IMG/VR virus record: IMGVR_UViG_3300008624_000009
Span: 1 to 62,365 of that record
Origin: a virus
Lineage: Duplodnaviria; Caudoviricetes
Direction: 5' to 3' (one strand)
Length of the DNA: 62,365 bases
A model generated the notes under the pieces. The model worked only from the letters and a program-made list of their open reading frames with translations, made no database searches and had not been told where the DNA came from. This document shows positions 13,228-60,394 of this stretch, one piece after another; positions within the stretch are counted from its first letter, which is position 1; every line of letters begins with the position of its first letter. Both the position numbers and the translations under genes were made by a program.

Positions 13228-13235
13228 TATAAATA
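13228..13235 (+). promoter_or_regulatory. T4-type late promoter
   Basis: TATAAATA upstream of gp8. Confidence 0.75.
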
Positions 13236-13271
13236 CACAATAAGGATAACCAATATTAAAGGAATTACAAT

Positions 13272-20412: not shown

Positions 20413-20619
20413 ATGAAAAATATAAAAATAAATGAAACACCATATGTTCGTGATGCAGAATCTAAAGCAATTCTCAATACAAATAAAACTGCATTACAGA
20501 GTTATAAGATTGCAAGACAAAGAAAAATAGATGAAATGAATGATATAAATAACATGAAAAAAGATATTGCTGAACTTAAAGAAATGATAAAGACTTTATT
20601 AGGAAAACAACATGGCTAA
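20413..20619 (+). CDS. Small coiled-coil hypothetical protein
   Basis: VRDAESKAILNT plus a C-terminal heptad; follows the DUF4815 gene. Confidence 0.8.
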   Translation: MKNIKINETPYVRDAESKAILNTNKTALQSYKIARQRKIDEMNDINNMKKDIAELKEMIKTLLGKQHG

Positions 20620-26207: not shown

Positions 26208-26234
26208 TATCATATACTAACAAAGGATAATTAA

Positions 26235-28655: not shown

Positions 28656-29768
28656 ATGTCAATACAAAAAGTATCAACTTCTATAATAGATGATAATGCT
28701 GTAACTGGGCCGAAAATTGCTATGGGTTCAGATGTTTCTGGTGATATTGTATATTATGATGGAACAGATTACGTTAGATTACCTAAAGGCACAGATGGAG
28801 ATACCTTAACAGTAGTGAATGGATTACCTTCATGGGGTAGTGGTAATGGTGGTGCATCATCATCAGATTGGGGAACTGGACAGTTTCAAGGAACACAATT
28901 TGGTTTTTGTACTCATGGTAATCATCCACAGGCAAATAACATACAAAAATATTCTTATACTAGTGATATAAATGCTGTTAATGTAGCTGATTTAACATAC
29001 GCTTGTCAAGCATCATCTGGAGGCAGAAGTCAAGATTATGGTTATGCAGCTGGTGGTGAAATGCAAGGACATCCAAATACCGATATAATTGATAAATATT
29101 CATTTACTTCTGGACAGAACTCTGATGATATTGGCAATCTTACTGTACCACGAGCTATGTGGGGTGGACAAGGTGCATCATCAGGACTTGCTGTTTATTG
29201 GCATGGTGGTCATGATGATCCTAATTGGAAGGTTATAGATAAACGAGTAACCTCATCTGATGGTGATGCGACGAGTGTCGGTGATTTATTCTCAGGAAGA
29301 TATGGTGCTGCAGGCGCTTCATCTAATACACATGGTTATGCGATGGGCGGTTGTCAGAACAACACTAATTTTCATAATTTAATAGAGCGTTATGCTTTTG
29401 CATCTGATGGAAATTCAGTAGATACAAATCGTGATTTGTACGAAGCTGTAAATTTGCCATTTGCTAGTAATTCGACAACACATATTTATGTGTCAGGTGG
29501 AATGTTGACTGCTAATAGTGCTTATTCTGAGAATGTTACAAAATTTGCTATTGATTCAAGTACTAATGCAGCAGATATTGGTAATCTTTCTGCTGGTGTA
29601 TCAGGTAATGGAGCGGGAACATCATCTACTACGCATGGATATTGTCATGGTGGTTATCCAAGTTACAGACAACTAATAGAAAAAATTAATTTTAGTACTG
29701 ATGGCAACGCTACAGGTGTAGGCGATCTTGACCTCGGCGTATCAAATAGTTCTGGTTCACAACACTAA
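28656..29768 (+). CDS. Putative receptor-binding protein with type A propeller-like repeats
   Basis: About six ~45-aa repeats SS.THGY..GG...I.K.SF.SD.NA..VGDL. Confidence 0.7.
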   Translation: MSIQKVSTSIIDDNAVTGPKIAMGSDVSGDIVYYDGTDYVRLPKGTDGDTLTVVNGLPSWGSGNGGASSSDWGTGQFQGTQFGFCTHGNHPQANNIQKYSYTSDINAVNVADLTYACQASSGGRSQDYGYAAGGEMQGHPNTDIIDKYSFTSGQNSDDIGNLTVPRAMWGGQGASSGLAVYWHGGHDDPNWKVIDKRVTSSDGDATSVGDLFSGRYGAAGASSNTHGYAMGGCQNNTNFHNLIERYAFASDGNSVDTNRDLYEAVNLPFASNSTTHIYVSGGMLTANSAYSENVTKFAIDSSTNAADIGNLSAGVSGNGAGTSSTTHGYCHGGYPSYRQLIEKINFSTDGNATGVGDLDLGVSNSSGSQH

Positions 29769-29781
29769 ACTATCAAACAAA

Positions 29782-31020
29782 ATGGCGTTACAAAAACTAA
29801 CATCTGGTATAATTCAAGATAATGCTGTAACTGGGTCTAAAATCTCCGTAGCAACTCCTTCAGTTGGAGATATTTTATATTATAATGGAACAGAATATAC
29901 TAAATTAGCTATTGGTGCAGAGGGAGAAGTTTTACAATTAGATGATGGTTTACCTGTTTGGGAAGTTAGTGATGCTGTACAAAGTGGTGCTATTCCTGGC
30001 TTTCCTTTTCATGGAAATCATTGGTTCTATGGTGGAAATTTTGGTAGTGTTACTGGTAATACAATACTATATCATTCTTTTACATCCGATAATCATGCAA
30101 TCGTAGGACATAATGCAGCAGTAGGTTCTACTGCGATGCCCGATATTAATTCAGCTATGTCTATGAGTAGTGCTACAGAAGCAGTTGTTACTAGTGGGTA
30201 TAGGGGTAGTGGTATTCTTGATGTTACAGAAAAATTTGCATATGCATCAGCAACAACTGCGATGAATGGTGCAACTGATATTTCTCAATCTTTTGGAACT
30301 CTTGGTTCACCTCCTATTTTTGGATCAGGTGGATATTCTTGTGAATCAGGAACTCATGGTTATATTGGTGGTGGGCGCTCAGGGGAGCTTAGTTCTTTTG
30401 GATATGCAGACCCTAATGCTTATGTTAGGAAATTTGAATTTGCAACTGGAAATGTAACAGTTGGGATTGCGACTCTTGAAGATGTCAAGACAGGACATTT
30501 AGCAGTTTCAAGTCAAACAGATGGTTTTTGGTGTGCTGGACATTATGGCCATGCGAATAGTCAAAACCCATATTCAACAAGGTCTATTGATAAATTTACT
30601 TTTGCATCTGAAAATATGCAACATAATTGGGATAGTTTATCAGATGATCGTATGAATGGTGCAACTGGGTCTAGTAGTACCACACATGGTTATATGTATG
30701 GTGGACATATTTGTTGTTACCAGCCGGGTGAAGGTACAGCAATAACTACGATAGAAAAATTTTCTTTTGCATCATCAGGACAGAAAACTAATCATGGTGA
30801 TATTTCAACAACAGTAGGTAGGTCTGGCCCGACTGGTGGACAAACACAAACTCATGGTTATGAAATTGCTGGTTATGAGTATGGTACAGGACTACTGCTT
30901 ACGACTGTTGATGGATATTCTTTTTCCAGTAATACAACAGCAACACAAACTGCCGATATTGGAATAACCGTTGATAATGCAGCTTGTGGATGTCAAGCTC
31001 CAACATTTTCATTTTCTTAG
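29782..31020 (+). CDS. Putative receptor-binding protein with type A repeats
   Basis: Start moved to ATG 29782 (MALQKLTS), parallel to MSIQKVST of the previous gene; same repeats. Confidence 0.7.
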   Translation: MALQKLTSGIIQDNAVTGSKISVATPSVGDILYYNGTEYTKLAIGAEGEVLQLDDGLPVWEVSDAVQSGAIPGFPFHGNHWFYGGNFGSVTGNTILYHSFTSDNHAIVGHNAAVGSTAMPDINSAMSMSSATEAVVTSGYRGSGILDVTEKFAYASATTAMNGATDISQSFGTLGSPPIFGSGGYSCESGTHGYIGGGRSGELSSFGYADPNAYVRKFEFATGNVTVGIATLEDVKTGHLAVSSQTDGFWCAGHYGHANSQNPYSTRSIDKFTFASENMQHNWDSLSDDRMNGATGSSSTTHGYMYGGHICCYQPGEGTAITTIEKFSFASSGQKTNHGDISTTVGRSGPTGGQTQTHGYEIAGYEYGTGLLLTTVDGYSFSSNTTATQTADIGITVDNAACGCQAPTFSFS

Positions 31021-37615: not shown

Positions 37616-37619
37616 AAAA

Positions 37620-37627
37620 TATAAATA
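37620..37627 (+). promoter_or_regulatory. T4-type late promoter heading the 7-gene array
   Basis: Intergenic TATAAATA. Confidence 0.75.
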
Positions 37628-37665
37628 ACAATAAAGATAAAAACATTCAAAAAAGGATATAGTCC

Positions 37666-38805
37666 ATGAGTGTAACGAAGGTAACTAACGATAATATAGT
37701 TGATATTTCTGCTGAAACAGTAAGTGGTACTTTACCAGCATTAAACGCAAGTGCAGTTTTAAATATGCCTACTGGTGAATCAATCATAGAATCAGCAAAT
37801 GATCCAGCTTTTGATTCCGATTTAGAATTAGGAAAAATGTGGTTGAATACGACAAACGGTGAAATGTTTGTTTGTACTGATGCTACGCCAGGGCTCAATG
37901 TTTGGAAAAATATTGCAGCTGGTTCTGACCATGTAGAGCCTCCTTTTCAATATGCGGGTACACAAACTGCTTGGATTGTTGGTGGTCATGCAAGTATGTC
38001 TAATGTCGATAATATGGAAACATTTTCATTAACTTCTGATGGTAATGCTACAATGTTGAGTGATGTTACCATGAATAATAATTATGCAGCTACTGGGACA
38101 AAATCAAATACTAGTGGTTATATTCTCGGTGGCGGGTGGCCTATTAATAGCGATATAGAAAAATATTCTTTTGAAAGTGGTGGAGATTCAACAAATGTAG
38201 GTACACTTAATACAGGAAGATATTGTATTGCTGGATTTTCAACAGGATCACATGGTTACGGTGTTTCTGGACTTCTAACTTCAACTGGTAGTGGAGCAGT
38301 AGATAAATTTTCATATAGTAATGAAGGCAGTGCTGTTGAGGTTGGTAATATGCCTTCTACGGGTTATGCTGCTGGAGTTACCGGCCCTGATAATGGTTAT
38401 ATCTATACAGGAAACGGAAATTCAGATATTGAAAAATATACTTATGCATCTGATAGTAGTGCTGTTCATTCTACTATGTATAATACAAGACATTCCCAAG
38501 CTTGTCATTCTACTTCAACTCATGGATATAGTTCTGGTGGGCATACTGGATCATGGGTATCTACTATTGATAAATTTTCATTTGCAAATACTAGTAATGC
38601 AGTTCATATTACGGATTTAGCATATGATAAATGTAGATGTCATGGTTATTCATCTGAAACACATGGATATACAAGTGGTGGATCTTCTAATCAACCTGGC
38701 GGTCCAGAAAGATTAGAAAAATTTTCATTTGCATCTGAAACTACTGCAACAATAATTGGTTCATGTATTAATAGAGATTCTTGGTCTAGTGGTACACAAT
38801 TTTAA
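37666..38805 (+). CDS. Array member 1: conserved ~95-aa N-module plus type A propeller-like head
   Basis: WLNTTNGEMFVCTDAT..NVW module; THGY/KFSF repeats. Confidence 0.75.
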   Translation: MSVTKVTNDNIVDISAETVSGTLPALNASAVLNMPTGESIIESANDPAFDSDLELGKMWLNTTNGEMFVCTDATPGLNVWKNIAAGSDHVEPPFQYAGTQTAWIVGGHASMSNVDNMETFSLTSDGNATMLSDVTMNNNYAATGTKSNTSGYILGGGWPINSDIEKYSFESGGDSTNVGTLNTGRYCIAGFSTGSHGYGVSGLLTSTGSGAVDKFSYSNEGSAVEVGNMPSTGYAAGVTGPDNGYIYTGNGNSDIEKYTYASDSSAVHSTMYNTRHSQACHSTSTHGYSSGGHTGSWVSTIDKFSFANTSNAVHITDLAYDKCRCHGYSSETHGYTSGGSSNQPGGPERLEKFSFASETTATIIGSCINRDSWSSGTQF

Positions 38806-38820
38806 AAAAGGAAATTACAA

Positions 38821-39966
38821 ATGTCTGTAACTAAAGTAACTAACGATAATATAGTTGATGTTTCTGCTGAATTAGTAAGTGGTACTTTACCAGCATTGGA
38901 TGCAAGTGCAGTTTTAAATATGAATACTGGTGAATCAATAACAGAATCAGCAAATGATCCAGCTATAGATTCTGATTTAGGATTAGGGAAATTGTGGTTG
39001 AATACTACAAATGGCGAAATGTTTGTTTGTACTGACGCAACGGCTGGACTTAATGTTTGGAAAAATATTGCAGCTGGTGCTGATCATGTAACACCCCCAT
39101 ACTCATTTCAAGGTACTCAGAGTGGATGGGTTACTGCTGGTAATGCTGCTGATAATACTTTTGAAACTTATTCTCTTGCTTCAAATAATAATGCAGTAGC
39201 ATCTGGCAGTACTTTAGGGACTGTTACAGAAGGCCCTGTTATTTCTAAATCTAAAACAGATATGTATGTCATGGGTGGTTATGTGCCTGGGGCACTTATT
39301 ACAGATGTCCAAAAAGTTTCATTTTCAACTGCTGCAGCATCATCTACTGTTAATAATTTAAATTCAGGAAAATATTGTGGTGCTGGTGCAAGTAGTGAAC
39401 TTAGAGGGTATCAAATCGCTGGTTGTGATGGTCATGACCATGTTGAATATCAAAGTCATGTAAACGACGGCGATAGTGCTGATATTGGTAATTTATATCA
39501 AAATGAAGCTGGATTTGCAACTTCTATGTCTGGGCCAACCGAAGTTCTTACTGATGTAGGTTGGTATAATCTTAATGCCGTTCATCATTTTTCATTTGCA
39601 AATGATGCTACTAAAACCAAACATTGTGATATGGTTGGGAATGGTTATGCACAAGGCGGTTGTTCATCAACCACACATGGTTATACTGCGTCTGCTCATC
39701 AATGGCGTACTACGATTAGGAAAGTAGGATTTGCTAGTGGTTCAACACAGATTAATCATCCTACTTTAGCAGTAACAAATCAAATGGGTTCTGCTGGTTG
39801 TGGTACTTGTTCAGAAACTCATGGTTATCAAAATGGGGGTTATCCTGATAACGGAAATAGTAATACTCATTATATTGAATCATGGAGTTTTGCTAGTGAA
39901 AGTGGAGTATCACATATTGGAAATCTCACACAAAAAAGAGCTTGGAGTGTAGGAGCACAAAATTAA
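38821..39966 (+). CDS. Array member 2 (sister of member 1), type A head
   Basis: 5' DNA 38821-39090 closely matches 37666-37935. Confidence 0.75.
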   Translation: MSVTKVTNDNIVDVSAELVSGTLPALDASAVLNMNTGESITESANDPAIDSDLGLGKLWLNTTNGEMFVCTDATAGLNVWKNIAAGADHVTPPYSFQGTQSGWVTAGNAADNTFETYSLASNNNAVASGSTLGTVTEGPVISKSKTDMYVMGGYVPGALITDVQKVSFSTAAASSTVNNLNSGKYCGAGASSELRGYQIAGCDGHDHVEYQSHVNDGDSADIGNLYQNEAGFATSMSGPTEVLTDVGWYNLNAVHHFSFANDATKTKHCDMVGNGYAQGGCSSTTHGYTASAHQWRTTIRKVGFASGSTQINHPTLAVTNQMGSAGCGTCSETHGYQNGGYPDNGNSNTHYIESWSFASESGVSHIGNLTQKRAWSVGAQN

Positions 39967-39994
39967 ATTTATAAAATAAAAAGGAAAATAAAAA

Positions 39995-41197
39995 ATGGCT
40001 GTAACCAAAATCACAAAAGAAAATATTAGTGATGTATCAGCAACTAAATTAACTGGTTCACTTCCTGCTATTGATGGACAATACATTACGAATGTACCAG
40101 CTGGTGAGGTAATGATAAAATCAGCAGCAAATCCAACTAATACCTCTAATCATTCTGCTGGAACCATGTGGGTAAATACAACAAATGGCGAAATCTTTGT
40201 TTGTACTGATGCTTCGACAGATGAAAATACTTGGACAAATGTTGGGCCTGGAACAACTGAAGTTGCAACAGTAGTGTGGACATATCAGGGAACACAATAT
40301 GGTTATGTAGTTGGGGGTTATCATGGTAGTCCCGGCCGTAATGATGAAATCGAAAGATATTCTTTTACTTCTAATAATGTTAATAATAATATTGGTAGTT
40401 TGATAGCACTTAATACAGTTCCTAGTGGACATAGTAGTACTGATTATGGATGGGTAACTGGTGGATGGAATGGTGCTGATATTACTACTATCGAAAAGTT
40501 TTCTTGGGCTTCATCAGCAAGTTCTGCTGCAACTGGAGCAACTGTTGGTGGTAATATGTCTTTGGCTACTGCAGCTAGTACTCAGACTGGGACTACTGCT
40601 TATTTAACAGGTGGATTTGATAATCCGAATGTTACAACTCATCATACTACTAGGAAATTTTCATTTGATTCAACAACAGATGCTGTTATCGTAGGAACTA
40701 TGGCATTTTCTGGTGGAATTTATCACAATATTGGTTGGTCTTCAGATACACATGGTTATTCTGCAGGCGGATATCCTTATGGGCGTTCTCCAAATACTGT
40801 TTCTCACATTGAAAAATTTGCATTTGCAACAGATACACAACAAGCTGTTGGTTGTGGAGATCTTGCTTCACCAGCTTCATATGTTTCTGGTTCAAACTCT
40901 ACAACGTATGGTTATCGGGATGGTGGATGGAATGGTGGTAGTTATACAGCAAATATGGAAGCTTATTCTTTTGCATCAGAAGGTACTGCTTCTACAATAG
41001 GTGTTCTTACTTATGCTCGTAATTGGTCTGGTGGCTCATCATCAACTACGCATGGTTATCATCATGGCGGTAGAAATACTAGTGGTACTTATATGACAGA
41101 TGTTCACCAATATTCATATGCATCACACGGTAATGCTAATAATATAATGAATGTAGCAACAGCACGTGGCGGAGTTCCTAGTAATATACAATTTTAA
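39995..41197 (+). CDS. Array member 3, type A head
   Basis: Same architecture. Confidence 0.75.
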   Translation: MAVTKITKENISDVSATKLTGSLPAIDGQYITNVPAGEVMIKSAANPTNTSNHSAGTMWVNTTNGEIFVCTDASTDENTWTNVGPGTTEVATVVWTYQGTQYGYVVGGYHGSPGRNDEIERYSFTSNNVNNNIGSLIALNTVPSGHSSTDYGWVTGGWNGADITTIEKFSWASSASSAATGATVGGNMSLATAASTQTGTTAYLTGGFDNPNVTTHHTTRKFSFDSTTDAVIVGTMAFSGGIYHNIGWSSDTHGYSAGGYPYGRSPNTVSHIEKFAFATDTQQAVGCGDLASPASYVSGSNSTTYGYRDGGWNGGSYTANMEAYSFASEGTASTIGVLTYARNWSGGSSSTTHGYHHGGRNTSGTYMTDVHQYSYASHGNANNIMNVATARGGVPSNIQF

Positions 41198-41218
41198 TAA
41201 AATAAAAAGGAAAGTAAA

Positions 41219-42454
41219 ATGGCTGTAACCAAAATCACAAAAGAAAATATTAGTGATGTATCAGCAACTAAATTAACTGGTACGCTTCCTGCTATTGATG
41301 GACAATTTCTGTCTAATTTACCAGCTGGTGAGATAATGGTGAAATCAGCATCAAATCCAACTAATACTGCAAATAATTCTGCTGGAACCATGTGGATAAA
41401 TACTACAACTGGCGAAATGTTTGTTTGTACTGATGCGACAACAGATGCTAATGCTTGGACAAATGTTGGGCCCGGTGAAACAGAAGTTACAACATCATAT
41501 GCTCCTGCTGGTGAACAAGGAATGACATATGGATATGTGTGTGGATCACATACTGGAGCAGGGATGGATCCATTGGCAGCAATCGACAAATATGCTTTTG
41601 CAAGTGCTAGTAATGGAATTGCTAATGTTGGTTCTCTTTCTACGACCAGAAATGGGCCAAATACTAATCATTCATGGACTCATGCTTTTATATCAGCAGG
41701 TGCTCAAAATGGGAATGATTCAACCATAGAAACTTTTGCATTTGCTTCTGATGGTGCTTGTACTAATTGGGCTGACATGGCTGCCCATACTCAGTATGGT
41801 TATGGTTGTGGTTCTAGTGATAAAGATGGTGGATATGGTTATTTAAATGGGGGAAGAAGAACAAGTGGTAGTGGGCCATCATATACAACTAATAAAGTTT
41901 CTAGGTTTCCATTTGCATCTCAATCAAATGCTACTAATATTGGTACTTTGCAAATGTGGCAAGATTGCCCAGGCAATACAGTAGATAGGGTTAATGGTTA
42001 TGCTAATTATCATGGTGGTGCGGATGCGGGTTCTAATCATTTACCAAGTTATAATTATAGATATGCATTTGCATCAAGTGTTAGTTCATCTCAATTTTCT
42101 AATATGTTATCTGGAAATTGGCATTATTATGGAGAAGGAAGTCAAAGTGCTACTGATGGTTTTTTAGCTGGTGGATATGAACCATCCACAGCTAATTATA
42201 CAGCAGCTCAAATTCAACAACATTCATTTGCAAGTCTTTCTAATAGTGTTCTATGGGGTTCATTAACACATGGCAGATATGCTGCAGCGTGTCATTCATC
42301 ACCCGATCATGGATGGAGTGCTCATGGAATGGCAGGTTCGGGATGGAATCAAAATTGTCTGGATAAATTTTCATTTGCTTCATCTGGTAATTCTATTGAT
42401 GTGGGAGATATGTTATTTCAACCTAGATGTTATAGTCCTGGCGTTCACGTTTAA
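41219..42454 (+). CDS. Array member 4 (sister of member 3), type A head
   Basis: 5' DNA 41219-41494 closely matches 39995-40270. Confidence 0.75.
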   Translation: MAVTKITKENISDVSATKLTGTLPAIDGQFLSNLPAGEIMVKSASNPTNTANNSAGTMWINTTTGEMFVCTDATTDANAWTNVGPGETEVTTSYAPAGEQGMTYGYVCGSHTGAGMDPLAAIDKYAFASASNGIANVGSLSTTRNGPNTNHSWTHAFISAGAQNGNDSTIETFAFASDGACTNWADMAAHTQYGYGCGSSDKDGGYGYLNGGRRTSGSGPSYTTNKVSRFPFASQSNATNIGTLQMWQDCPGNTVDRVNGYANYHGGADAGSNHLPSYNYRYAFASSVSSSQFSNMLSGNWHYYGEGSQSATDGFLAGGYEPSTANYTAAQIQQHSFASLSNSVLWGSLTHGRYAAACHSSPDHGWSAHGMAGSGWNQNCLDKFSFASSGNSIDVGDMLFQPRCYSPGVHV

Positions 42455-42478
42455 TTTTAATAAAAAAGGAAATAAAAA

Positions 42479-43672
42479 ATGTCGTCAACTAAAATACAAG
42501 ATACTGTTATAGAAAGTTTAGATGCTAGTAAACTTACAGGAACATTTGGAGCAATAGATGGAAGTAATTTAACAAATTTGCCTCCATCTGGTGAAGTTAT
42601 AACAAAAGATACAGTTAATCCAGAAGCAAATAGTAATCCAGCAACTGGTGTAGGTACACTTTGGTTAAATACGCAAGATGGTGAAATGTATTGTTGCACA
42701 GATGCTACTACTGATGCTAATGTTTGGAAAACTGTTAGTACTTCTTCTGGTTCAGGTGGTTCTGGTTCTCCCGCTCCGGCAAATGAATCTTTTGTGATGG
42801 GTGTAAGTGATGGATATATGTCTGGTGGAGAAAATGATGCAACAGGTATAGATGTTCACAAAGTATCTTTTTCAAGTGATGGTGATGCTGCAGATCATGG
42901 TGATTTAACAGAAGCAAGAAATGCTGTTTGTGGATCCTCATCTGGTACACATGGATATATGATGGGTGGCTATAAACCCGGCTATCCTAGTAGTGCATCA
43001 ACCAGAGTTGATAAATTTGCTTTTGCTAGTAATGCATTTGGTACACAAGTATCAAATTTGCCTTGGGGTGATTTTAATTGTGCTGGACATTCATCATGGG
43101 CAGAAAATAAAAGTTTTATGAGTGGTGGATCTTATTATGGTCATGCTGTTCTTTCTTGGGGTCATGCTACAGACAATTCGATAGGACATCCACTAAACTT
43201 ATCAGGTACTAAAAATGAACACGCAGGTACTAGTTCAGCTACACATGGTTATTTAGCCGGAGGCAATCCTAATAATGGTATGCAAAAATTTCAATTTGCA
43301 AGTGGATATGCTGTTTCTGCCGGTATTGGAAATTTACACACTTATGTTCAGGAAATGGGTTCTTCAAATTCAGCTGACTGGGGTTATACTCATGCTGGTC
43401 ATGATGGAAGTTGGAACAATACAGCTACAATTCAAAAACACTCTTTTGTTTCAGATGGAACTGTTGGATTTGTTGGCAATTTATCAGAACCAAAAAATGC
43501 AAGTGGTGGTTTTTCTTCAACAACATATGGTTATTGTGGAGGCGGAAAACCAGCTGCTGGTGGACATACTGATAGAATTGAAAAATATCCTTTTGCTTCA
43601 GATTCAGGTGCTAGTACTGTTGGCGTTTTAATGAATCAATTACAACATCTTCCTGCTGGAAATCAAGTTTAA
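42479..43672 (+). CDS. Array member 5, type A head
   Basis: Same architecture with a Gly/Ser linker. Confidence 0.75.
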   Translation: MSSTKIQDTVIESLDASKLTGTFGAIDGSNLTNLPPSGEVITKDTVNPEANSNPATGVGTLWLNTQDGEMYCCTDATTDANVWKTVSTSSGSGGSGSPAPANESFVMGVSDGYMSGGENDATGIDVHKVSFSSDGDAADHGDLTEARNAVCGSSSGTHGYMMGGYKPGYPSSASTRVDKFAFASNAFGTQVSNLPWGDFNCAGHSSWAENKSFMSGGSYYGHAVLSWGHATDNSIGHPLNLSGTKNEHAGTSSATHGYLAGGNPNNGMQKFQFASGYAVSAGIGNLHTYVQEMGSSNSADWGYTHAGHDGSWNNTATIQKHSFVSDGTVGFVGNLSEPKNASGGFSSTTYGYCGGGKPAAGGHTDRIEKYPFASDSGASTVGVLMNQLQHLPAGNQV

Positions 43673-43696
43673 ATTATAAAAAAAAGGAAATAACAA

Positions 43697-44941
43697 ATGG
43701 CTGTAACTAAAATAACAGATGAAAATATAGTTGATGTTGATGCTTCAAAACTAGTAGGTTCTTTTGGAACGCTGGATGGTTCTAATTTGACTAATGTAAC
43801 AGTAGGTAAAACAGTTACTAAAGCAACTAGTGATCCAACACAGGAAACAAATCCTGCTGATGGCGTAGGAACATTATATTTGAATACTTCTAGTGGTGAG
43901 CTATTCTGTTGTGTAGATGCTACTACGGATTTTAATGTTTGGAAAAATACTGGATTAGGTACAACAGGTACAATAAAATATGTAGTTCCGAACAATTATG
44001 TATATCAAGGAACACAGAATGGTTATTCATTGGGTGGGCATTTAGATTTTGGTGATATTCAAAAGTTTTCATTCACATCTAATGGAAACAGTACAACTAT
44101 TGGCCAATTAGCTTGGTCTACTTATAATGGTGTAGGAAGTCAGAGTGAAACAGATGGTTATAAATGTAAAGGAACAGATTGGGGTGGTACACCATCTTCA
44201 CGATATGATATTCAAATGTTTTCATTTGCTTCTGAAGGTAATTCAGTAGCTACTGGATTTTATGCTTTGGATGCGGGTACTGAATATTCACATGGTGGCT
44301 CTTCTAGTTCCACAGACGGAATCCATTGTTATTTTACTGGTGGTTGGAATAGTACTCTCGGTGGTGGTATTACTGCTATTCAAAGTTTTTCATTTCCTGC
44401 AACATCTGATGCTATTGATGTTGGTGATTTAAGTACAGATGCCAATTCTGGCTGGGGTTGGTCATATGATAATACCTATGGTTATCATGCTGGTGGTTGG
44501 GGAGATAGTAATGGGGGTGAAAATGTAAAAAGAATACAAAAATTTCCATTTGCTCAATCTGGTATAGCAGGTTCAGTTATCAGTTCTGAATTAACAGTTG
44601 CAAGACGGCATTGTAACGGACAAGGTATATGTTCAACAACTCATGGTTTCGTAGCGGGTGGAGATACTGGGAATAATAATGAAACAAATGTTATTGATAA
44701 AATGTCATTTGCAACAGAAGCAACTATGACAGATCATGGCGATTTAAATTATGCTGTTTCTTATATGGCTGGAAACGCAAGTTCAACAACTGATGGCTAT
44801 GTTTTTGGTGGACAGTATATGCCAAATTATACGAAAGTAGATCACATTCAAAAATTTGCATATTCGTCTAATACAACTGCTAGTGATATTGGAAATATAT
44901 CAGCGGGTCCTCTTAAATCAGTTGCAGGATGTCATAACTAA
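43697..44941 (+). CDS. Array member 6, type A head
   Basis: Same architecture. Confidence 0.75.
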   Translation: MAVTKITDENIVDVDASKLVGSFGTLDGSNLTNVTVGKTVTKATSDPTQETNPADGVGTLYLNTSSGELFCCVDATTDFNVWKNTGLGTTGTIKYVVPNNYVYQGTQNGYSLGGHLDFGDIQKFSFTSNGNSTTIGQLAWSTYNGVGSQSETDGYKCKGTDWGGTPSSRYDIQMFSFASEGNSVATGFYALDAGTEYSHGGSSSSTDGIHCYFTGGWNSTLGGGITAIQSFSFPATSDAIDVGDLSTDANSGWGWSYDNTYGYHAGGWGDSNGGENVKRIQKFPFAQSGIAGSVISSELTVARRHCNGQGICSTTHGFVAGGDTGNNNETNVIDKMSFATEATMTDHGDLNYAVSYMAGNASSTTDGYVFGGQYMPNYTKVDHIQKFAYSSNTTASDIGNISAGPLKSVAGCHN

Positions 44942-44966
44942 TAAGTCTTTAAAAAGGAAATAACAA

Positions 44967-46178
44967 ATGTCTGTAACTAAAGTAACAGATGAAAATATAG
45001 TTGATGTTGATGCTTCAAAACTAGTAGGTTCTTTTGGAAATGTTGATGGTTCTAATTTGACTAATGTACCTCTTGGCAAATCAATTACTAAAACAACTAG
45101 TGATCCAACACAGGAAACAAATCCTGCTGATGGCGTAGGAACATTATATTTGAATACTTCTAGTGGTGAGTTATTCTGTTGCGTAGATGCTACTACGGAT
45201 TTTAATGTTTGGAAAAATACTGGATTAGGTACAACAGGTAAGATTGAATTTTCTTCTGGGCCACAATATTTTGGAAATAGAGGATTATTTTTTGGTGGTA
45301 ACTGGACTCAGATGACAACTGATGCTATTCAATATCTTAGTATACCATCATTAAGTAATACAACTACATTTGGTGATTTAAATAGGTATCATCAATCAAG
45401 GCCTGGATGTTTATCTAATGGAACACGAGCAGTTTGTGTTGCTGGTAATATGGATGGGCCGAATACAGGAATGGATTATGTTACAGTAGCAACACCTGCT
45501 ACTTCACAAGAGTTTGGAACATTTGCTTATGCTAATACTTATCTTGATGCTGTAAGTAATGGAACAAGAGGACTTATTACTCCTGGCGCATATGGTAGTG
45601 CTAGTATGCCTATGGAATATATTACTGTTCAAACTAATGGTAATTCTACAACTTTTGGTTCTGTTGTATTTAGTAATGGTTCATATGATCAGCATTGTGG
45701 ATGGATGCCAGTTGTTGGTAATGGTACTAGAGCAATAATGTTGGGTGGTTATCCACATACTCCAAATGGCCCTCTCATTGGTGGAATTATAAGTTATGTA
45801 GTTATAGCTACTCAGAGTAATGCATCTCAATTTGGTACTTTAAATCAATATAGATACGGTGCAGCAGGATTAAATGATAGAACTTATGGTGTATGTTGGG
45901 GTGGACAATATTATGATAATGGTTATATTCCAGCTGGAAATGAATGGATAACAATGGCAACAAATGGTAATGCACTAGTATTTGGTGGAGTAACTGTGAG
46001 CCATCAAAACGATACAGGTGCCTGTTCAAATTCAGAAAGAGGTGTAATACAAATGTATACTAATAATGAAATTGAATATATGACAATGGCAAATCCAAAT
46101 GCTAATGCTGTTGTATTTGGACAAAATTCTATATCATCTAATCAAGCTGGTTGTGGTGCAACATCAGGTAATGCATAA
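44967..46178 (+). CDS. Array member 7 (sister of member 6), type B head
   Basis: 44951-45240 closely matches 43681-43970; head repeats are SNGTRA/G...M.Y.T.AT..N...FG. Confidence 0.75.
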   Translation: MSVTKVTDENIVDVDASKLVGSFGNVDGSNLTNVPLGKSITKTTSDPTQETNPADGVGTLYLNTSSGELFCCVDATTDFNVWKNTGLGTTGKIEFSSGPQYFGNRGLFFGGNWTQMTTDAIQYLSIPSLSNTTTFGDLNRYHQSRPGCLSNGTRAVCVAGNMDGPNTGMDYVTVATPATSQEFGTFAYANTYLDAVSNGTRGLITPGAYGSASMPMEYITVQTNGNSTTFGSVVFSNGSYDQHCGWMPVVGNGTRAIMLGGYPHTPNGPLIGGIISYVVIATQSNASQFGTLNQYRYGAAGLNDRTYGVCWGGQYYDNGYIPAGNEWITMATNGNALVFGGVTVSHQNDTGACSNSERGVIQMYTNNEIEYMTMANPNANAVVFGQNSISSNQAGCGATSGNA

Positions 46179-46179
46179 T

Positions 46180-46220
46180 TATAAATAATGCAGATAAGAG
46201 TAAAATGAGTATTATAAATA
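46180..46220 (+). promoter_or_regulatory. Two T4-type late promoters
   Basis: TATAAATA at 46180-46187 and 46213-46220. Confidence 0.75.
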
Positions 46221-46255
46221 CAAGTAATTATTAAATTATTTTTTTAGGAGTCAAC

Positions 46256-47108: not shown

Positions 47109-48860
47109 ATGTATATAGGAAAACCATACCAAAGTACCGCTGTACCAAGTAAAACATTTGATACTTTTACTGGTAACGGATCAATAACAACATTAACATT
47201 ATCACAAACACCATCTTCTGTTAATAATGTGTTTGTATATTTTGATGGTGTTGCTCAAAGACCAACTACGGATTATACCTTAGCTGGAAATACATTAACA
47301 TTTTCTTCTGCTCCTTCTAATGGTGTTGTTGTTTTTGCAATAGTAGGTGGTGGAGAACATATTTCTACACCTATGGGTGGTTCAATAGGTGCTGAAGATA
47401 TTGTTGATGCTGCTATTACTAATGCAAAAATAACATCTGTTGATGCAAGTAAACTTAGTGGTAGTGCATTTCCAGCAATTAATGGTGCTAATATTTCAAA
47501 TCAATTTGAACAAGCTAGTCCTTTTATAGAATCTACATCTGATCCTGCTATAGATAGTAATTTGACATTAGGAACAGCATGGCTTAATAAAACGACTGGC
47601 AATATATATATTTGTACGGATGCTACGACAAACGAAAATAGTTGGCAAAGTGTCGGTGATGGTTCTGGACATATATTAAAAAATCAACTACCTGGCGAAG
47701 CTACTGATGATGTACCTAATATAGAAGAAAGTACAACATTGAGTCATACCTTTACTGGTGGTACTGATGCAGACGGTACTGTTACACACTATGTCGTAGA
47801 TCAAATCTCTGATCCTATTTTATCAGTTGCTGCTTCAGAAGTTGCTGCTGGTTCAGCACATGAATTTACTGCTTCAGCAGTTAGTGGTGATACGAATGTT
47901 ACATTTCGTGTAAGGACAAAGGATGATGCTGGTATGTATAGTCCCGGCATAACTGTTACCGTAACCGTAGAAGATTATGTACCTTTTTGGTCAAATTATG
48001 CTCAAATGCACGCATATAGTGCTGGTGGCTGTTGGGGACACGATAAAATTGAAAGATTTTCAGTATTAACGGATGCAAATAATGCTGAGATTGGTACACT
48101 TTCTCTTGCGGTGGAATATGGAACGGGTACAAATAGTATATCACATGGATATATTTACGGTGGGGTAAATGATTGGGCTAATGGGTCTGAAAGTGTTGTG
48201 CAGAAAGTTCAATTGGCTGCATCAGCGAGTTCTTCTAATATATCTAATATGGTGAAACATTCTTATCAGCATGGTGCTGCTAATGAAGAAAATTATGGAT
48301 GGAAGTTTGGTGGTGATAGTACTCCTGATCCAGATTGGCGGATTCTTGAAAAACAATCTTATGCTTCTGATTCAAATATGACTAGTCCAGGCAATATGGT
48401 TGGTGGTGATCGTGGTAATATGAATGATGGAGTTTCTGGCCCTACACATGGATTTGCTATTGGTAATAATTATTATTCTTGTATTGATAAATGGTCTTAT
48501 GCTTCTGGTACAGATGCAGCAGATCATGGTGATAATTCTGAATATAGGTCAGGTGTTGCTACACAATGGACTACAACTCATGGTTATTTAAGTGGTGGAT
48601 ATAAATTAGGTGTTGGATCTAAAACCCATGTTGATAAATTTTCTTTTGCTAGTAATTCAACTGCTACACAAGTAGGAAATATATCGAGTTACAGATATGG
48701 TAATCTTCAAGGATGGTCTACACAAACTCATGCATATACTGGTACTGGTTATGGTGGTTATAAAACAGTTGATAAATTTGCATTTGCAAGTGAAGGAACA
48801 GCAGCACATTGTTCAGACTTACTTAATAATACAGTAGGTGCATCTAGTTTTCAAAGATAA
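47109..48860 (+). CDS. Putative receptor-binding protein: GDGS module, WLN module, Ig/cadherin-like spacer, type A head
   Basis: MYIG start; TDADG...VRTKDDAG spacer; THGY repeats. Confidence 0.7.
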   Translation: MYIGKPYQSTAVPSKTFDTFTGNGSITTLTLSQTPSSVNNVFVYFDGVAQRPTTDYTLAGNTLTFSSAPSNGVVVFAIVGGGEHISTPMGGSIGAEDIVDAAITNAKITSVDASKLSGSAFPAINGANISNQFEQASPFIESTSDPAIDSNLTLGTAWLNKTTGNIYICTDATTNENSWQSVGDGSGHILKNQLPGEATDDVPNIEESTTLSHTFTGGTDADGTVTHYVVDQISDPILSVAASEVAAGSAHEFTASAVSGDTNVTFRVRTKDDAGMYSPGITVTVTVEDYVPFWSNYAQMHAYSAGGCWGHDKIERFSVLTDANNAEIGTLSLAVEYGTGTNSISHGYIYGGVNDWANGSESVVQKVQLAASASSSNISNMVKHSYQHGAANEENYGWKFGGDSTPDPDWRILEKQSYASDSNMTSPGNMVGGDRGNMNDGVSGPTHGFAIGNNYYSCIDKWSYASGTDAADHGDNSEYRSGVATQWTTTHGYLSGGYKLGVGSKTHVDKFSFASNSTATQVGNISSYRYGNLQGWSTQTHAYTGTGYGGYKTVDKFAFASEGTAAHCSDLLNNTVGASSFQR

Positions 48861-52000: not shown

Positions 52001-53494
52001 ATGTCATATATAGGAAAAGATGTAAAAAGTGTATCAACTGCTAACATAACAGTTGATTCAATGACGGGAGATGGTTCTGCTAATACATTAGCATTATCGC
52101 TAACGATGGTTGATTCAATATATGATGTAGCAGTTTATATAGATGGAATTGCTAGAACTCCAGGCATAGATTATACATTATCAAATACAACAATAACTTT
52201 TGCAACACCCCCTAGTGTTGATCAAAAAGTTGTAGCTATATCAACAGGAGATGCACTAAAGGATAATGTTATAGATAACTCATTTACGGTTGATAGTATT
52301 AAAGATAATTCTATTACAGATGCAAAAGTTGTTGGATTAGATGCAAGTAAATTAACTGGGGCATTACCCGCAGTAGATGGTTCTGCAATAACTGGCATAG
52401 ATGGTACGATTGCTATAATACAACAATCCTATAAACCTACTTATAATGCTGATGTTGGAGAAGGAGCTATATGGCTAAATACTTCAACTGGCCAATTTTA
52501 TGTTTGTACTAATGGTACTCCTGGCAACAATACTTGGGTCAATGCTGGAACTGGTACTGGACTTATTGAGTACGTGCCTTGGTCTTATACAGGAACATTG
52601 TCTGCACATACATTTGGTGGATATATTGCTCATTATGGTACTGATATGATACAAAAGTGGAATTTTGCTTCAAATTCTGGTGCATCACATAAAGGTAGTA
52701 TTGAAGGAGCTGGGGGTCGTGGAACAGATGGTCCGATTGGTGTTTCTGGTGCTACACATGGGTACGTTTGTGGTGGTCATAGTGCTGATACTGGTGGTTA
52801 TGTATCAAATATATCTAAAGTTGCTCATGCTACAGAATCAGAAAGTTCTGTTAATACTGGTGCTAATTTGTCAAATTCTAGGTCTAATACTGATGGAATT
52901 GGATCAGAAATTGCTGGTTATGTTTTTAATGCTTATCCATATACAACTGCTATTGATAAATTTTCTTTTGCTAGTGATGGTAGTTGTTCTGCTGTGGCTA
53001 ACACAGGTGTACCTGCTCATGGGACTCAAGGACAAGCTTCAACAACTCATGGATATTGTTCTGGTGGGCATGATTGGGTAGCTGGAGCTAAAATAACAAC
53101 AATACAAAAATTTGATTTTGCATCAGATTCGGATTCAACATCAGTAGGAGATATAGCAGGTGTTGGTAGATATATGGGAGCAGGATGTAATTCTGTAACT
53201 CATGGTTATGTAGCTGGTGGTCAGAAGGGTAATCCTTCTGCAAGAGTGTCAACTATTGATCAATTTTCTTTTGCTAATGAAAACAATTCAGTAGGACACG
53301 GTGATTTAGCAGGTATAAGATATGGAAATGCTGGACATTCTTCAACTACTGATGGATATAGTTCGGTTGGTGGAACCGCATATAATGGTAAACAAAATGA
53401 TATTCACAAATTTTCCTTTTCATCTAATACAACCGCAGTAGGACATGGCAACGCTGGTATGTCCGTTTATATGGCTGGTGGACACCAATATTAA
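52001..53494 (+). CDS. Putative receptor-binding protein: GDGS and WLN modules, type A head
   Basis: MSYIG start; THGY/KFSF repeats. Confidence 0.72.
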   Translation: MSYIGKDVKSVSTANITVDSMTGDGSANTLALSLTMVDSIYDVAVYIDGIARTPGIDYTLSNTTITFATPPSVDQKVVAISTGDALKDNVIDNSFTVDSIKDNSITDAKVVGLDASKLTGALPAVDGSAITGIDGTIAIIQQSYKPTYNADVGEGAIWLNTSTGQFYVCTNGTPGNNTWVNAGTGTGLIEYVPWSYTGTLSAHTFGGYIAHYGTDMIQKWNFASNSGASHKGSIEGAGGRGTDGPIGVSGATHGYVCGGHSADTGGYVSNISKVAHATESESSVNTGANLSNSRSNTDGIGSEIAGYVFNAYPYTTAIDKFSFASDGSCSAVANTGVPAHGTQGQASTTHGYCSGGHDWVAGAKITTIQKFDFASDSDSTSVGDIAGVGRYMGAGCNSVTHGYVAGGQKGNPSARVSTIDQFSFANENNSVGHGDLAGIRYGNAGHSSTTDGYSSVGGTAYNGKQNDIHKFSFSSNTTAVGHGNAGMSVYMAGGHQY

Positions 53495-53519
53495 ACTATT
53501 TAATCAAAGGAAATAACAA

Positions 53520-55091
53520 ATGGGATTTATAGGAAATAACTTAAAAAATGTATTAACAGAAGCAAAATCTGTTGATACAATGACGGGTGATGGTTCTACT
53601 ACTACAATAACATTATCTAAAACGCCCGGTTCTGTTAATAATACTACTGTTTTTTGGGATGGTGTATTTAAAACTCCAATTACAGATTATACTTTATCAG
53701 GAACTACAATTACATTTGGAACAGCACCAGCACAAGATGTTCATGTAATGGTGTTTAGTGGTAATGATAGTTTAGTTGAAAGTCCAGAAAATATTACTGT
53801 TACATCTAGTATGATTGCTGATGGTTCTATTACATCTGATAAAATTGCTACGGTAGATATAAATAAATTAGATGGAACATTACCCGCTGGAGTAGATGCA
53901 TCAGCATTAACAGGAATGCCCGATCTTCCTAGTTTATATACAACAGTTTCTGCTTCTAGTCCAACAAGGACATCTAATCCTACGGGTGGCGTAGGAACAA
54001 TGTGGATCAATTCAACAGATGGAGAACTTTTTGTATGTGTTGATGCTGGAACAGATAATAATGAATGGCGGAATGTTGGAGAGTCGCAAGAATCAGATAA
54101 TGTTGCACCAGCACCACAATATCTTGGTGATATAGGAATGTGGATGGGTGGATATACTGGTACTGGTTTTTATGGTACTGATAATACTCATTCTATGGTT
54201 ATACCAACCCAAGCCAATACAGTACTTTTTGGAAGTACAACTTATGGTCATGGTGATATGCCCGGTGTGTGTTCAAATGGAACACGAGCAGTTGTTGCTG
54301 GTGGTTGGAATAATCATAATGGTTATGGTAGAACTCCTGTAATAGAGTATGTTACAATCGCAACGCCAGGTAATGCTACTTGGTTTGGCAATCTTACTTG
54401 GGGAGGGCAAACATCTTGGGGTACTCAAAATATTCATGGAACAGGAAATGGAACAAGAGGTATATACAATACTGGAGCATATGGTGGTTCAAGTGGAGCT
54501 CCATCACCTAGAAATATGCAATATATAACGGTTGAAACACCAGCTAATGCTCAAGATTTTACTTCTGATAATATGACTTATGGAGGTGGACAACACCGAT
54601 GGCAAGCTATATGTAGTAATGGTGTTAGATGTGTTATATGGAATGGTTATTATTATGGTGATGAAACTAATTCTGGTAACTTGACAGGCCCAATTAGATA
54701 CATTAATATGGACACCACAAGTAATTCAATATCATTTGGAAATCAAGCAGGAAGGGGACTTGGTGGAGTTGGACTTAATGATAGAACATATGGTGTTTCT
54801 TATCATAACAAGAATGGTTGGACACAATGTGAACCTGCTGAGTACCTTACTATGGCTACTGAAGCTAATGCACAATTTTTTGCTAATCAGTATTCAGATA
54901 GATATTTATCACCTGCTGTTTGCACAGATACAGCAAGTCGTGCAGTTATTAAGTCTGGATTTTCAGCAGGTTGGGGTGGAGTATCAGGTACAGCAGAAAT
55001 GGTACAATGTAATAAACCTGATCAAAATGCTGTATTTTGGTTAAGTCTCGGTACTCGTAATCATCCAGGCGGAGCATCTGGAAACGGATAA
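53520..55091 (+). CDS. Putative receptor-binding protein: GDGS and WIN modules, type B head
   Basis: SNGTRA, GNGTRG, LNDRTYGV, as in 44967..46178. Confidence 0.72.
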   Translation: MGFIGNNLKNVLTEAKSVDTMTGDGSTTTITLSKTPGSVNNTTVFWDGVFKTPITDYTLSGTTITFGTAPAQDVHVMVFSGNDSLVESPENITVTSSMIADGSITSDKIATVDINKLDGTLPAGVDASALTGMPDLPSLYTTVSASSPTRTSNPTGGVGTMWINSTDGELFVCVDAGTDNNEWRNVGESQESDNVAPAPQYLGDIGMWMGGYTGTGFYGTDNTHSMVIPTQANTVLFGSTTYGHGDMPGVCSNGTRAVVAGGWNNHNGYGRTPVIEYVTIATPGNATWFGNLTWGGQTSWGTQNIHGTGNGTRGIYNTGAYGGSSGAPSPRNMQYITVETPANAQDFTSDNMTYGGGQHRWQAICSNGVRCVIWNGYYYGDETNSGNLTGPIRYINMDTTSNSISFGNQAGRGLGGVGLNDRTYGVSYHNKNGWTQCEPAEYLTMATEANAQFFANQYSDRYLSPAVCTDTASRAVIKSGFSAGWGGVSGTAEMVQCNKPDQNAVFWLSLGTRNHPGGASGNG

Positions 55092-60393: not shown

Positions 60394-60394
60394 T

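What the first reader, a model, noticed from the sequence alone, without database searches (positions are those of the whole stretch)
37620..46178. Seven-gene tandem array with a constant adaptor and variable propeller-like heads, arranged in sister pairs
Seen: seven consecutive ~400-aa genes after one late promoter. Each has the same ~95-aa N-module (M..TK....I.D.SA.KL.G...W.NT..GE.F.C.DAT....W) followed by about six ~45-aa repeats. Genes 1/2, 3/4 and 6/7 have nearly identical 5' DNA (37666-37935 vs 38821-39090; 39995-40270 vs 41219-41494; 43681-43970 vs 44951-45240). Identity stops abruptly at the same protein boundary in every pair. Inference: this is a plug-and-play receptor-binding repertoire, with the adaptor kept homogeneous by recombination or gene conversion while heads are swapped or diversified. 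No invertase, reverse transcriptase or integrase is present in the window.
Basis: partly seen in the sequence, partly recalled or inferred. Interest (0 to 1): 0.85.

Follow-up and report, generated by a model that had tools for sequence, protein, structure and literature searches.

The report
Tandem array of swappable propeller tail fibres
An uncultured marine T4-like phage carries seven back-to-back genes, each joining a short stalk module to a six-bladed propeller head, and recombination at the stalk/head joint keeps reshuffling them, probably to vary which hosts the phage can grab.

Summary
Seven same-strand genes of 379-414 aa (37666-46178) follow one T4-late-type TATAAATA motif. Each has a ~90-aa N-module and a six-bladed Kelch-type propeller.

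Three adjacent pairs share 5' DNA: 86.9%, 87.8% and 94.5% identity over 290-303 nt. Identity ends at codon 90-92 in each pair. "Nearly identical" fits only g6/g7. "Constant adaptor" is overstated, because non-sister N-modules are 38-60% identical.

At identical residues, sister N-modules reuse the same codon at 80-96% of sites; their heads do so at chance (48-57%). So the N-modules are much younger than the heads. This is recombination or gene conversion, not purifying selection. The g6 and g7 heads are not sisters (AU p 8e-43).

A related contig (L029) has a g6 head 98.9% identical but an N-module only 89.7% identical. It lacks g7, carries an extra cassette, and joins a g5-type N-module to a g9-type head.

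The same N-module subtype sits on at least five head lineages. Elsewhere it sits on an unrelated Gly_rich_2 head.

The N-module is predicted to trimerise. Virion location and receptor binding are inferred from context only.

Verdict: a new variant of modular multi-receptor-binding systems, in a large unannotated marine family.

The parts
37620..37627 (+). TATAAATA, T4-late-promoter-like motif 38 nt upstream of g1
   Evidence: No further copy until 46180. The motif is not enriched window-wide.
37666..38805 (+). g1, 379 aa: N-module (37666-37935) plus six-blade Kelch-type head
38821..39966 (+). g2, 381 aa. Its N-module (38821-39090) is sister to that of g1: 86.9% nt identity.
   Evidence: Its head is sister to the g1 head but saturated at synonymous sites.
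39995..41197 (+). g3, 400 aa: N-module 39995-40270 plus Kelch-type head
   Evidence: Kelch_1 scores 17.9 bits, below the 20.1 cut-off.
41219..42454 (+). g4, 411 aa. Its N-module (41219-41494) is sister to that of g3: 87.8% nt identity.
   Evidence: A g3+g4 head clade is neither found nor rejected (p-AU 0.21).
42479..43672 (+). g5, 397 aa, unpaired. Its N-module is nearest to the g6/g7 type.
   Evidence: AF2 model with pLDDT 85.4. In L029 the gene at this position has a g9-type head.
43697..44941 (+). g6, 414 aa. The shared 5' segment is 43681-43970.
   Evidence: The L029 ortholog has a head 98.9% identical and an N-module 89.7% identical.
44967..46178 (+). g7, 403 aa. The shared 5' segment is 44951-45240 (94.5% to g6). 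The head belongs to a divergent Kelch subfamily.
   Evidence: The whole cassette is cleanly absent from L029.
46180..46187 (+). Next TATAAATA motif, directly after the g7 stop; it marks the end of the unit
47109..48860 (+). g8, 583 aa: ~100-aa tail-fibre-type N-terminal domain, then the N-module (aa 102-183), an insert and a Kelch head
52001..53494 (+). g9, 497 aa: N-terminal domain, N-module (aa 104-182) and Kelch head
   Evidence: A head of this type sits on a g5-type N-module in L029.
53520..55091 (+). g10, 523 aa: N-terminal domain, N-module (aa 103-187) and a head that is not Kelch and has no known family
28656..31020 (+). Two adjacent genes (28656-29768 and 29782-31020) with Kelch-type heads but a different ~75-aa N-terminus
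   Evidence: head HMM E 1e-45 and 4e-29, no N-module hit.

Best explanation
The array is a set of seven short trimeric fibre or spike proteins. It lies in the host-recognition cluster of an uncultured marine T4-like myovirus whose nearest cultured relatives infect Pelagibacter and OM43.

Each protein has a ~90-aa N-module that intertwines into a homotrimer. A short low-confidence linker follows, then a six-bladed Kelch-type beta-propeller that most likely binds a host surface ligand. The seven genes are probably transcribed late as one unit.

The N-module/head joint (codon ~90-92, just after the conserved W-x-N-x-G motif) is a recombination boundary, where two things happen:
(a) N-modules of neighbouring genes overwrite each other by gene conversion. 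This produced three events of different age, with N-module dS of 0.34, 0.23 and 0.11.
(b) Whole head cassettes are gained, lost and exchanged between related phages.

Shown: the anatomy, the fold, the age mismatch between N-module and head, and the discordant head partners. Predicted only: the trimer. Inferred from context: virion attachment, receptor binding and a host-range benefit.
For: Context. Baseplate wedge genes lie upstream, neck genes downstream, and tail-fibre PHROGs all around. The DUF4815 giant protein is at 14795-20407. The layout fits the published VrlC-to-gp14 'host recognition cluster' (PMC7029224, passages). The nearest gp6 is that of Pelagibacter phage HTVC008M, at 38%.

Fold. 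The g5 model has pLDDT 85.4 and matches KLHL12/KEAP1 Kelch domains at TM 0.86-0.91. The family profile hits Kelch chains in the PDB down to E 1.4e-14. The g7 model also matches Kelch.

Trimer. Three copies of residues 1-104 gave ipSAE 0.75 against a best control of 0.00. In the tool's calibration this mark was reached by 20 of 30 proteins solved as pairs of one chain and by 1 of 23 solved as single chains; that calibration used two copies, not three. The runs share at least 70% of their contacts, and the partner's pLDDT is at least 80.

Recombination.
- Same-codon share at identical residues is 60/75, 62/68 and 76/79 in sister N-modules, against 43/90, 46/86 and 39/68 in their heads (Fisher 2e-5, 2e-7, 8e-9). 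All 18 non-sister pairs are at chance.
- The N-module tree pairs g1/g2, g3/g4 and g6/g7 at 100% support.
- The head tree puts g7 with a head from another contig (100/100), and a g6+g7 clade is rejected at p 8e-43.
- Between the window and L029, 13 sites group the N-modules by genome and 4 by orthology, while the g6 head is 98.9% identical.
- L029 lacks g7 cleanly, has an extra cassette, and carries a g5-type N-module on a g9-type head.
- An N-module at least 88% identical is found on at least 5 head lineages that are under 45% identical to each other.
- In other viral contigs the N-module sits on Gly_rich_2 heads (6 of 6 proteins tested).

Not an assembly chimera. Each exact protein recurs on 2-5 contigs from JGI, ENA and/or Logan.
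Against: - No evidence here places these proteins in virions or shows that they bind anything.
- No Pfam Kelch model passes its cut-off for any of the seven. The best is g3, at 17.9 against 20.1 bits.
- The N-module has no Pfam match at E below 0.09 (0 of 19 members) and no PDB sequence match at E up to 10. Its role is therefore a prediction.
- g1-g7 lack the ~100-aa tail-fibre-type N-terminal domain that precedes the same module in g8-g10. How they would dock on the particle is unknown.
- Homogenisation is local, not array-wide. It is absent from three other arrays (0 of 33 pairs).
- The g1/g2 heads are sisters, so no swap occurred there.
- The population variants that carry sister-type residues, and the single 5-kb contig L029, come from short-read assemblies that can mis-phase 290-nt repeats.
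- Read-level checks could not be run.
- TATAAATA is not enriched over shuffles.
Confidence: 0.65

Rival explanations
1. The proteins are virion-attached but are not the primary receptor binders. They would be accessory fibres or whiskers that give weak, reversible adhesion to polysaccharide, particles or cell surfaces, or that sense the environment. Infection specificity would be set by other fibres in the cluster.
For: The cluster holds several much larger fibre proteins: 1159 aa at 34136-37615 and 987 aa at 48945-51908, the latter with strong tail-fibre PHROG hits. g1-g7 lack the N-terminal tail-fibre-type domain that g8-g10 have.
Against: Cassette turnover between close relatives, and many divergent heads on one stalk type, are the pattern expected of specificity determinants. 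No data here separate primary from accessory binding.
Confidence: 0.2
2. Plain tandem duplication. Strong purifying selection keeps the N-module alike, and fast divergence of the heads accounts for the rest. No recombination is involved.
For: The g1 and g2 heads are each other's closest relatives (98/95). A g3+g4 head clade is not rejected (p 0.21). In other arrays N-modules are simply more conserved than heads, 55-74% against 30-54% aa identity.
Against: Purifying selection does not preserve synonymous sites. Sister N-modules keep 80-96% of codons at identical residues, while their heads are at chance. The g6+g7 head clade is rejected at 8e-43. The g6 ortholog pair has a head 98.9% identical and an N-module 89.7% identical.
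Confidence: 0.03
3. The paired 5' ends are artefacts of metagenome assembly across a repeat.
For: The record is a metagenome contig. Repeats of ~290 nt with exact runs of 55-77 nt can be mis-phased by short-read assemblers. Some 'converted' variants in other assemblies could arise this way.
Against: The copies differ at 16-40 positions per pair, so they are not collapsed. Each exact full-length protein, joint included, recurs on 2-5 contigs from different sources, the longest being 95,376 nt.
Confidence: 0.03
4. The Kelch proteins are non-structural. They would act inside the cell on host proteins, as poxvirus Kelch proteins do.
For: Kelch propellers are classic protein-protein interaction domains. 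The structural matches include poxvirus Kelch proteins.
Against: The genes sit inside the late structural block behind a late-type motif. The N-module carries fibre-type motifs that it shares with neighbouring fibre genes and with tail-fibre-type proteins g8-g10. It is predicted to trimerise. There is no BTB or other intracellular adaptor domain.
Confidence: 0.05

Closest known systems
Host recognition cluster (HRC) of pelagimyophages and cyanomyophages (PMC7029224, passages read; PMC12379486, passages read)
   Same: It is a hypervariable, non-syntenic block of tail-fibre-like genes between VrlC and the neck gene gp14 in marine T4-like phages. Long reads have shown structural variants there. 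The window has the same layout: DUF4815 giant protein, about 39 kb of fibre-like genes, then neck genes.
   Different: The passages I read describe the cluster as poorly annotated and name other domains. 'Kelch' and 'propeller' occur 0 times in PMC7029224. Those passages do not describe the N-module, the tandem Kelch array or the conversion between neighbours. Supplementary tables were closed and may list the protein clusters.
Mosaic tail-fibre genes with a conserved N-terminal part and exchangeable C-terminal adhesin (P2/Mu/T-even fibres; 'His-box' recombination in T-even gene 37/38). Recalled, not read here.
   Same: Conserved sequence next to the variable binding part serves as the crossover point, so specificity domains move between genes and phages.
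   Different: Here there are seven or more paralogous genes in tandem in one genome. The heads are Kelch propellers. The conserved part is itself overwritten between neighbours. No sequence similarity to gp37/38 appeared in the PHROG scans.
Multi-receptor-binding-protein phages such as CBA120 (four tailspikes) and Klebsiella phage PhiK64-1 (about eleven depolymerases). Recalled, not read here.
   Same: Several binding proteins are encoded side by side. Each has a short conserved N-terminal attachment or assembly part and a different head. This is thought to widen host range.
   Different: The heads there are beta-helix depolymerases and the attachment domains are known from structures. Here the heads are propellers with no enzyme signature. 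The N-module has no Pfam or PDB match, and the docking site is unknown.
Staphylococcal phage phi11 receptor-binding protein Gp45, a trimer with a five-bladed propeller platform. Recalled, not read here.
   Same: It is a trimeric phage receptor-binding protein whose binding part is a beta-propeller.
   Different: Five blades there against six Kelch-type blades here. The stem differs and it is a single gene. No similarity was tested beyond the PDB fold search, whose listed top matches were all Kelch domains or designed Kelch-type propellers.
Kelch-type proteins of other phages in the BFVD fold search (Burkholderia phage BcepSaruman; 'virion structural proteins' of PhiPA3, Noxifer and Phabio; Synechococcus phage S-SKS1)
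   Same: Predicted six-bladed Kelch folds, some annotated as virion proteins.
   Different: Sequence identity is 12-23%. The N-module was not seen there, and no tandem array is reported in that output.

Membership tests
Kelch-repeat beta-propeller superfamily | Five to seven repeats of ~44-56 aa, each forming a four-stranded blade closed into a propeller | tested here: met
   The g5 model has 24 strands in residues 105-397 and TM 0.86-0.91 to Kelch domains. The g7 model has TM 0.76-0.83.
Kelch-repeat beta-propeller superfamily | Repeat signature with a GG doublet and a conserved aromatic residue | tested here: met
   The consensus repeat (T-H-G-Y-x-x-G-G ... I-x-K-F-x-F) recurs six times. The definition of the signature is recalled.
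Kelch-repeat beta-propeller superfamily | A Pfam Kelch model above its gathering score | tested here: not met
   0 of 7 pass. The best is g3 with Kelch_1 at 17.9 against 20.1 bits. The family profile does hit Kelch chains in the PDB at E 1.4e-14 to 3e-10.
Phage tail fibre or receptor-binding protein (functional class) | Encoded in the late structural block among baseplate and fibre genes | tested here: met
Phage tail fibre or receptor-binding protein (functional class) | Homotrimer | tested here: inconclusive
   Prediction only. ipSAE is 0.75 against a best control of 0.00 for three copies of residues 1-104.
Phage tail fibre or receptor-binding protein (functional class) | Present in the virion and binds a host surface receptor | not testable with these tools
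   No cultured phage carries a head relative. tblastn of g3, g5 and g7 against 50,697 phage records found only the N-module, in 2 records.
Diversity-generating retroelement, or invertase-driven fibre switching (Mu Gin / P1 Cin type) | Reverse transcriptase with template and variable repeats, or a serine invertase with inverted crossover sites | tested here: not met
   No RVT_1 and no Resolvase match in the window. There are 0 inverted repeats in 37500-46300. The record is only ~35% of the genome.
Pfam PTL_trimer (PF26696), Phage_tail_fib (PF12571) | Sequence match of the N-module to the family model | tested here: not met
   These came up only as Atlas leads, all under 0.9. The Pfam scan of 19 N-modules gave no hit at E below 0.09, and none to these families.

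The most novel reading that the evidence does not exclude
The N-module has two jobs. As protein it is the trimerising stalk. As DNA it is the homology that flanks every head, so the phage's own T4-type recombination works as a recombinase-free cassette exchanger, and populations hold a combinatorial head repertoire. Neighbouring genes whose N-modules have been made alike could also co-assemble into mixed trimers that carry two kinds of head on one fibre.
Probability: 0.2. Interest if true: 0.85.

Novelty: new variant of a known kind. Interest (0 to 1): 0.65.

Why it matters
The host-recognition cluster of marine T4-like phages is known to be hypervariable but is largely unannotated. This analysis gives it a concrete building block: a trimerising ~90-aa module joined to a Kelch propeller.

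The family profile finds 11,985 representative clusters at E up to 1e-3 and 2,068 at E up to 1e-30. No cultured phage in a collection of 50,697 records carries a head relative.

The analysis also shows how specificity parts turn over between near-identical phages. The joint is a crossover point. Whole cassettes come and go. The 'conserved' stalk diverges faster than the head between close relatives, because neighbours overwrite it.

This gives testable candidates for host-range determinants of phages that infect abundant, hard-to-culture marine bacteria. It also offers a defined joint for comparing repertoires across metagenomes.

Tried and rejected
- Near-identical DNA in deposited phages: none found for 37000-47000.
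No reads were laid, so the assembly question rests on recurrence of the exact proteins.
- Scans for close relatives of the g6 N-module returned one metagenome locus, L029, and no viral contig. The comparison between relatives therefore rests on one 5-kb contig plus protein records.
- Sigma-70 promoter-like sites and terminator-like sites in the array were not above shuffles.
- Gene conversion as a general trait of such arrays: rejected for L010, L011 and L012, where 0 of 33 pairs reach p<1e-3.
- Array-wide homogenisation: rejected.
- DGR or invertase switching: no parts found.
- Literature. No paper held Kelch + receptor-binding protein + bacteriophage + propeller together. In a broader search, only 2 of the 20 papers listed showed any 'Kelch' occurrence, and neither was on this topic judging by the listing or the passages read. 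None of the 15 papers listed for concerted evolution / gene conversion / tail fiber concerned fibre paralogues, by title and abstract.
Full report
WHAT THE WINDOW IS. The window is a whole IMG/VR virus record of 62,365 nt, linear and estimated to be 35% complete. It encodes T4-type baseplate wedge proteins at 8096-14762 and neck proteins at 59647-61258. A 1870-aa DUF4815 protein lies at 14795-20407. Between these lie about 39 kb of genes, many of which hit tail-fibre PHROGs. This is the layout published as the 'host recognition cluster' between VrlC and gp14 in pelagimyophages and cyanomyophages (PMC7029224, passages read). Equating DUF4815 with VrlC is recalled, not tested. The nearest cultured gp6 homologs are Pelagibacter phage HTVC008M (38%), Methylophilales phage Melnitz (37%) and Pelagibacter phage Mosig (36%), followed by cyanomyophages at about 35%. 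The host is unknown.

THE OBSERVATION. Seven + strand ORFs of 379-414 aa fill 37666-46178. Spacers are 15-28 nt with AAAGGAAA-like ribosome-binding sites. TATAAATA stands at 37620 and next at 46180 and 46213, with none inside the array. The motif is not enriched window-wide: 17 found against 14.3 expected, with 26 of 100 shuffles reaching 17. No convincing terminator or sigma-70 site lies inside. All seven proteins share a ~86-92-aa N-module, and 20 of the 27 invariant columns of the alignment fall there. Identity ends within a few bases of 37935, 40270 and 43970, which is codon 90-92 each time.

THE FOLD. An AlphaFold2 model of g5, built on a 65-row alignment, has mean pLDDT 85.4. Confidence is above 90 for most of residues 105-397, which hold 24 strands. 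It is low for residues 1-40 and 88-102. Foldseek against the PDB gives KLHL12, KEAP1 and designed SAKe6 Kelch propellers at E about 1e-18, with TM 0.86-0.91 normalised to the target. The family profile also hits these by sequence, at E 1.4e-14 to 3e-10. No Pfam Kelch model passes its cut-off for any of the seven. The g7 repeat consensus differs from the others. Its model (pLDDT 75.6) is still a Kelch-type six-blade, with TM 0.76-0.83. Kelch-like predicted structures exist in other phages, some annotated as virion proteins.

THE N-MODULE. It has no Pfam match (0 of 19 members at E below 0.09) and no PDB sequence match at E up to 10. Three copies of residues 1-104 were predicted to bind one another. 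The ipSAE score was 0.75 against a best control of 0.00. The three runs share at least 70% of their contacts and the partner's pLDDT is at least 80. The interface covers residues 4-43 and 58-88. The tool's calibration used two copies, not three; there the mark was reached by 20 of 30 proteins solved as pairs of one chain and by 1 of 23 solved as single chains. The model supports a trimer but does not show one. ESM Atlas leads, all under 0.9, point to phage tail trimerisation and tail-fibre N-termini.

The same module occurs internally, after a ~100-aa tail-fibre-type domain, in 47109-48860, 52001-53494 and 53520-55091. Kelch heads without it occur at 28656-29768 and 29782-31020. At least twelve genes of the cluster therefore use one or both parts.

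AGE MISMATCH BETWEEN N-MODULE AND HEAD. Nei-Gojobori dS is 0.34, 0.23 and 0.11 for the three sister N-modules. It is 0.85-0.98 for their heads and 0.8-1.4 for non-sister N-modules. Head alignments are poor, so I also counted codon identity only at aligned identical residues. Sister N-modules reuse the same codon at 60/75, 62/68 and 76/79 sites, where chance is about 0.55. Their heads do so at 43/90, 46/86 and 39/68 sites, which is at chance (Fisher 2e-5, 2e-7, 8e-9). All 18 non-sister pairs are at chance in both regions. Purifying selection cannot produce this pattern, so the N-modules of each pair share a much more recent ancestor than the heads.

TREES. The N-module tree pairs g1/g2, g3/g4 and g6/g7 at 100% support and puts g5 beside g6/g7 (92/89). 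In the head tree, g1 and g2 are sisters (98/95) but on very long branches: path 2.9 against 0.13 for their N-modules. g3 and g4 are unresolved, and holding them together is not rejected (p-AU 0.21). g7 groups with a head from another contig, L014 (100/100), and a g6+g7 clade is rejected (p-AU 8e-43). So g1/g2 look like old duplicates whose N-modules were later made alike. In g6/g7, two unrelated heads share one young N-module.

RELATIVES. A related 5,174-nt contig (L029) carries, in order:
- a g4 ortholog (84% nt identity);
- a gene with a g5-type N-module joined at the boundary to a g9-type head (85% to 52579-53523);
- a gene with a g6/g7-type N-module and a g3-like head;
- a g6 ortholog (96.7%);
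- directly after it, the sequence that follows g7 in the window (98.8%).

The g7 cassette is thus absent, cleanly between the g6 stop and the TATAAATA motif. The g6 head is 98.9% identical between the two genomes (957 nt), but the g6 N-module is only 89.7% identical. Within each genome the neighbouring N-modules are 94.1% alike. Thirteen sites group the four N-modules by genome, 4 by orthology and 0 the third way. This is concerted evolution of neighbours, or replacement of N-modules by recombination.

In the protein database, an N-module at least 88% identical to that of g6 is joined to at least five head lineages that are under 45% identical to each other. A head 92% identical to that of g7 carries an N-module only 80% identical. 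A head 84% identical to g7's sits in a 504-aa protein. In other viral contigs the N-module precedes a Gly_rich_2 (PF21722) domain instead (6 of 6 proteins tested). Tandem arrays of 3-6 N-module/Kelch genes occur in L010, L011 and L012. None of their 33 within-locus pairs shows the young-N-module signal at p<1e-3. Conversion between neighbours is therefore a feature of this lineage, not of the family.

POPULATION VARIANTS AND THE ARTEFACT QUESTION. Each exact g1-g7 protein recurs on 2-5 contigs from JGI, ENA and/or Logan, the longest being 95,376 nt. That argues against a chimeric joint. Within the 90% clusters, the N-module has at least as many variable columns per site as the head in 7 of 7 clusters. 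Several variants carry the sister gene's residues. One g7-head protein has 7 of 7 g6-type residues in positions 25-43 and no other change in its first 100 aa. One g6-head protein has 5 g7-type residues. This fits ongoing conversion. Short-read mis-phasing of a 290-nt repeat with exact runs of 55-77 nt would look the same. Read-level checks could not be run.

WHAT IT IS NOT. There is no reverse transcriptase, serine recombinase or tyrosine integrase in the window and no inverted repeats in the array. The record is only about a third of a genome.

FAMILY SIZE AND PRIOR DESCRIPTION. The seven-gene profile finds 11,985 representative clusters at E up to 1e-3, 8,043 at 1e-10 and 2,068 at 1e-30. Among the 150 listed are many ~380-410-aa proteins, ~480-530-aa proteins with an N-terminal extension, and giant multi-propeller proteins. 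The sources give no informative names for them. Against 50,697 deposited phage records, tblastn with g3, g5 and g7 finds only the N-module, in Pelagibacter podophages HTVC103P and HTVC104P, in a hypothetical protein beside putative structural genes. My literature searches found no description of this family or of fibre-paralogue conversion in marine phages. Supplementary tables were closed and may list the clusters.

VERDICT. The stalk is homogenised only between neighbours. One pair is an N-module overwrite rather than a head swap. The receptor-binding role remains an inference. The general principle, a conserved N-terminal part with an exchangeable binding head and several binding proteins per phage, is well known (recalled literature). 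The parts, the scale and the conversion between neighbours are new.

Noticed in passing
window 24737-25235 and 26222-26720: A fourth pair with the same pattern but a different N-terminal module. Genes 24750-25832 (360 aa) and 26235-27056 (273 aa) share 499 nt at 90.4% identity, covering the first ~162 aa, and then have unrelated C-termini. The same codon is used at 115/143 identical residues in the shared part against 12/23 after it. A 116-aa gene lies between them.
   Followed up: partly
window 20612-21736, 21754-22794, 27114-28646: Three fibre-like genes share another N-terminal module (phrog_9648 'tail protein') with different C-terminal parts. The cluster seems to be built from a few N-terminal modules and many heads.
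   Followed up: no
L009 5860-7185 (Pelagibacter phage HTVC103P gp66; HTVC104P likewise): These are the only deposited phage records with the N-module (aa 35-126 of a 441-aa hypothetical protein beside putative structural genes). They are podophages of Pelagibacter HTCC7211. This is a weak hint at a gene pool shared with SAR11 phages.
   Followed up: partly
window 34136-37615 and 48945-51908: Two giant fibre proteins (1159 and 987 aa) flank the array. Both carry repeated fibre motifs that resemble the first ~35 aa of the N-module, with weak N-module HMM hits. They are candidates for the structure on which the short trimers dock.
   Followed up: no
window 3001-4467 and 2210-2731: Upstream of the baseplate genes lie a match to a ribosomal protein S6 glutaminyl transferase-like PHROG and a 5'-3' deoxyribonucleotidase, both auxiliary-type genes.
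   Followed up: no
window 12218-12697: An internal tandem repeat of ~270 nt at 79% identity lies within the 1093-aa baseplate wedge-like gene 9927-13208.
   Followed up: no
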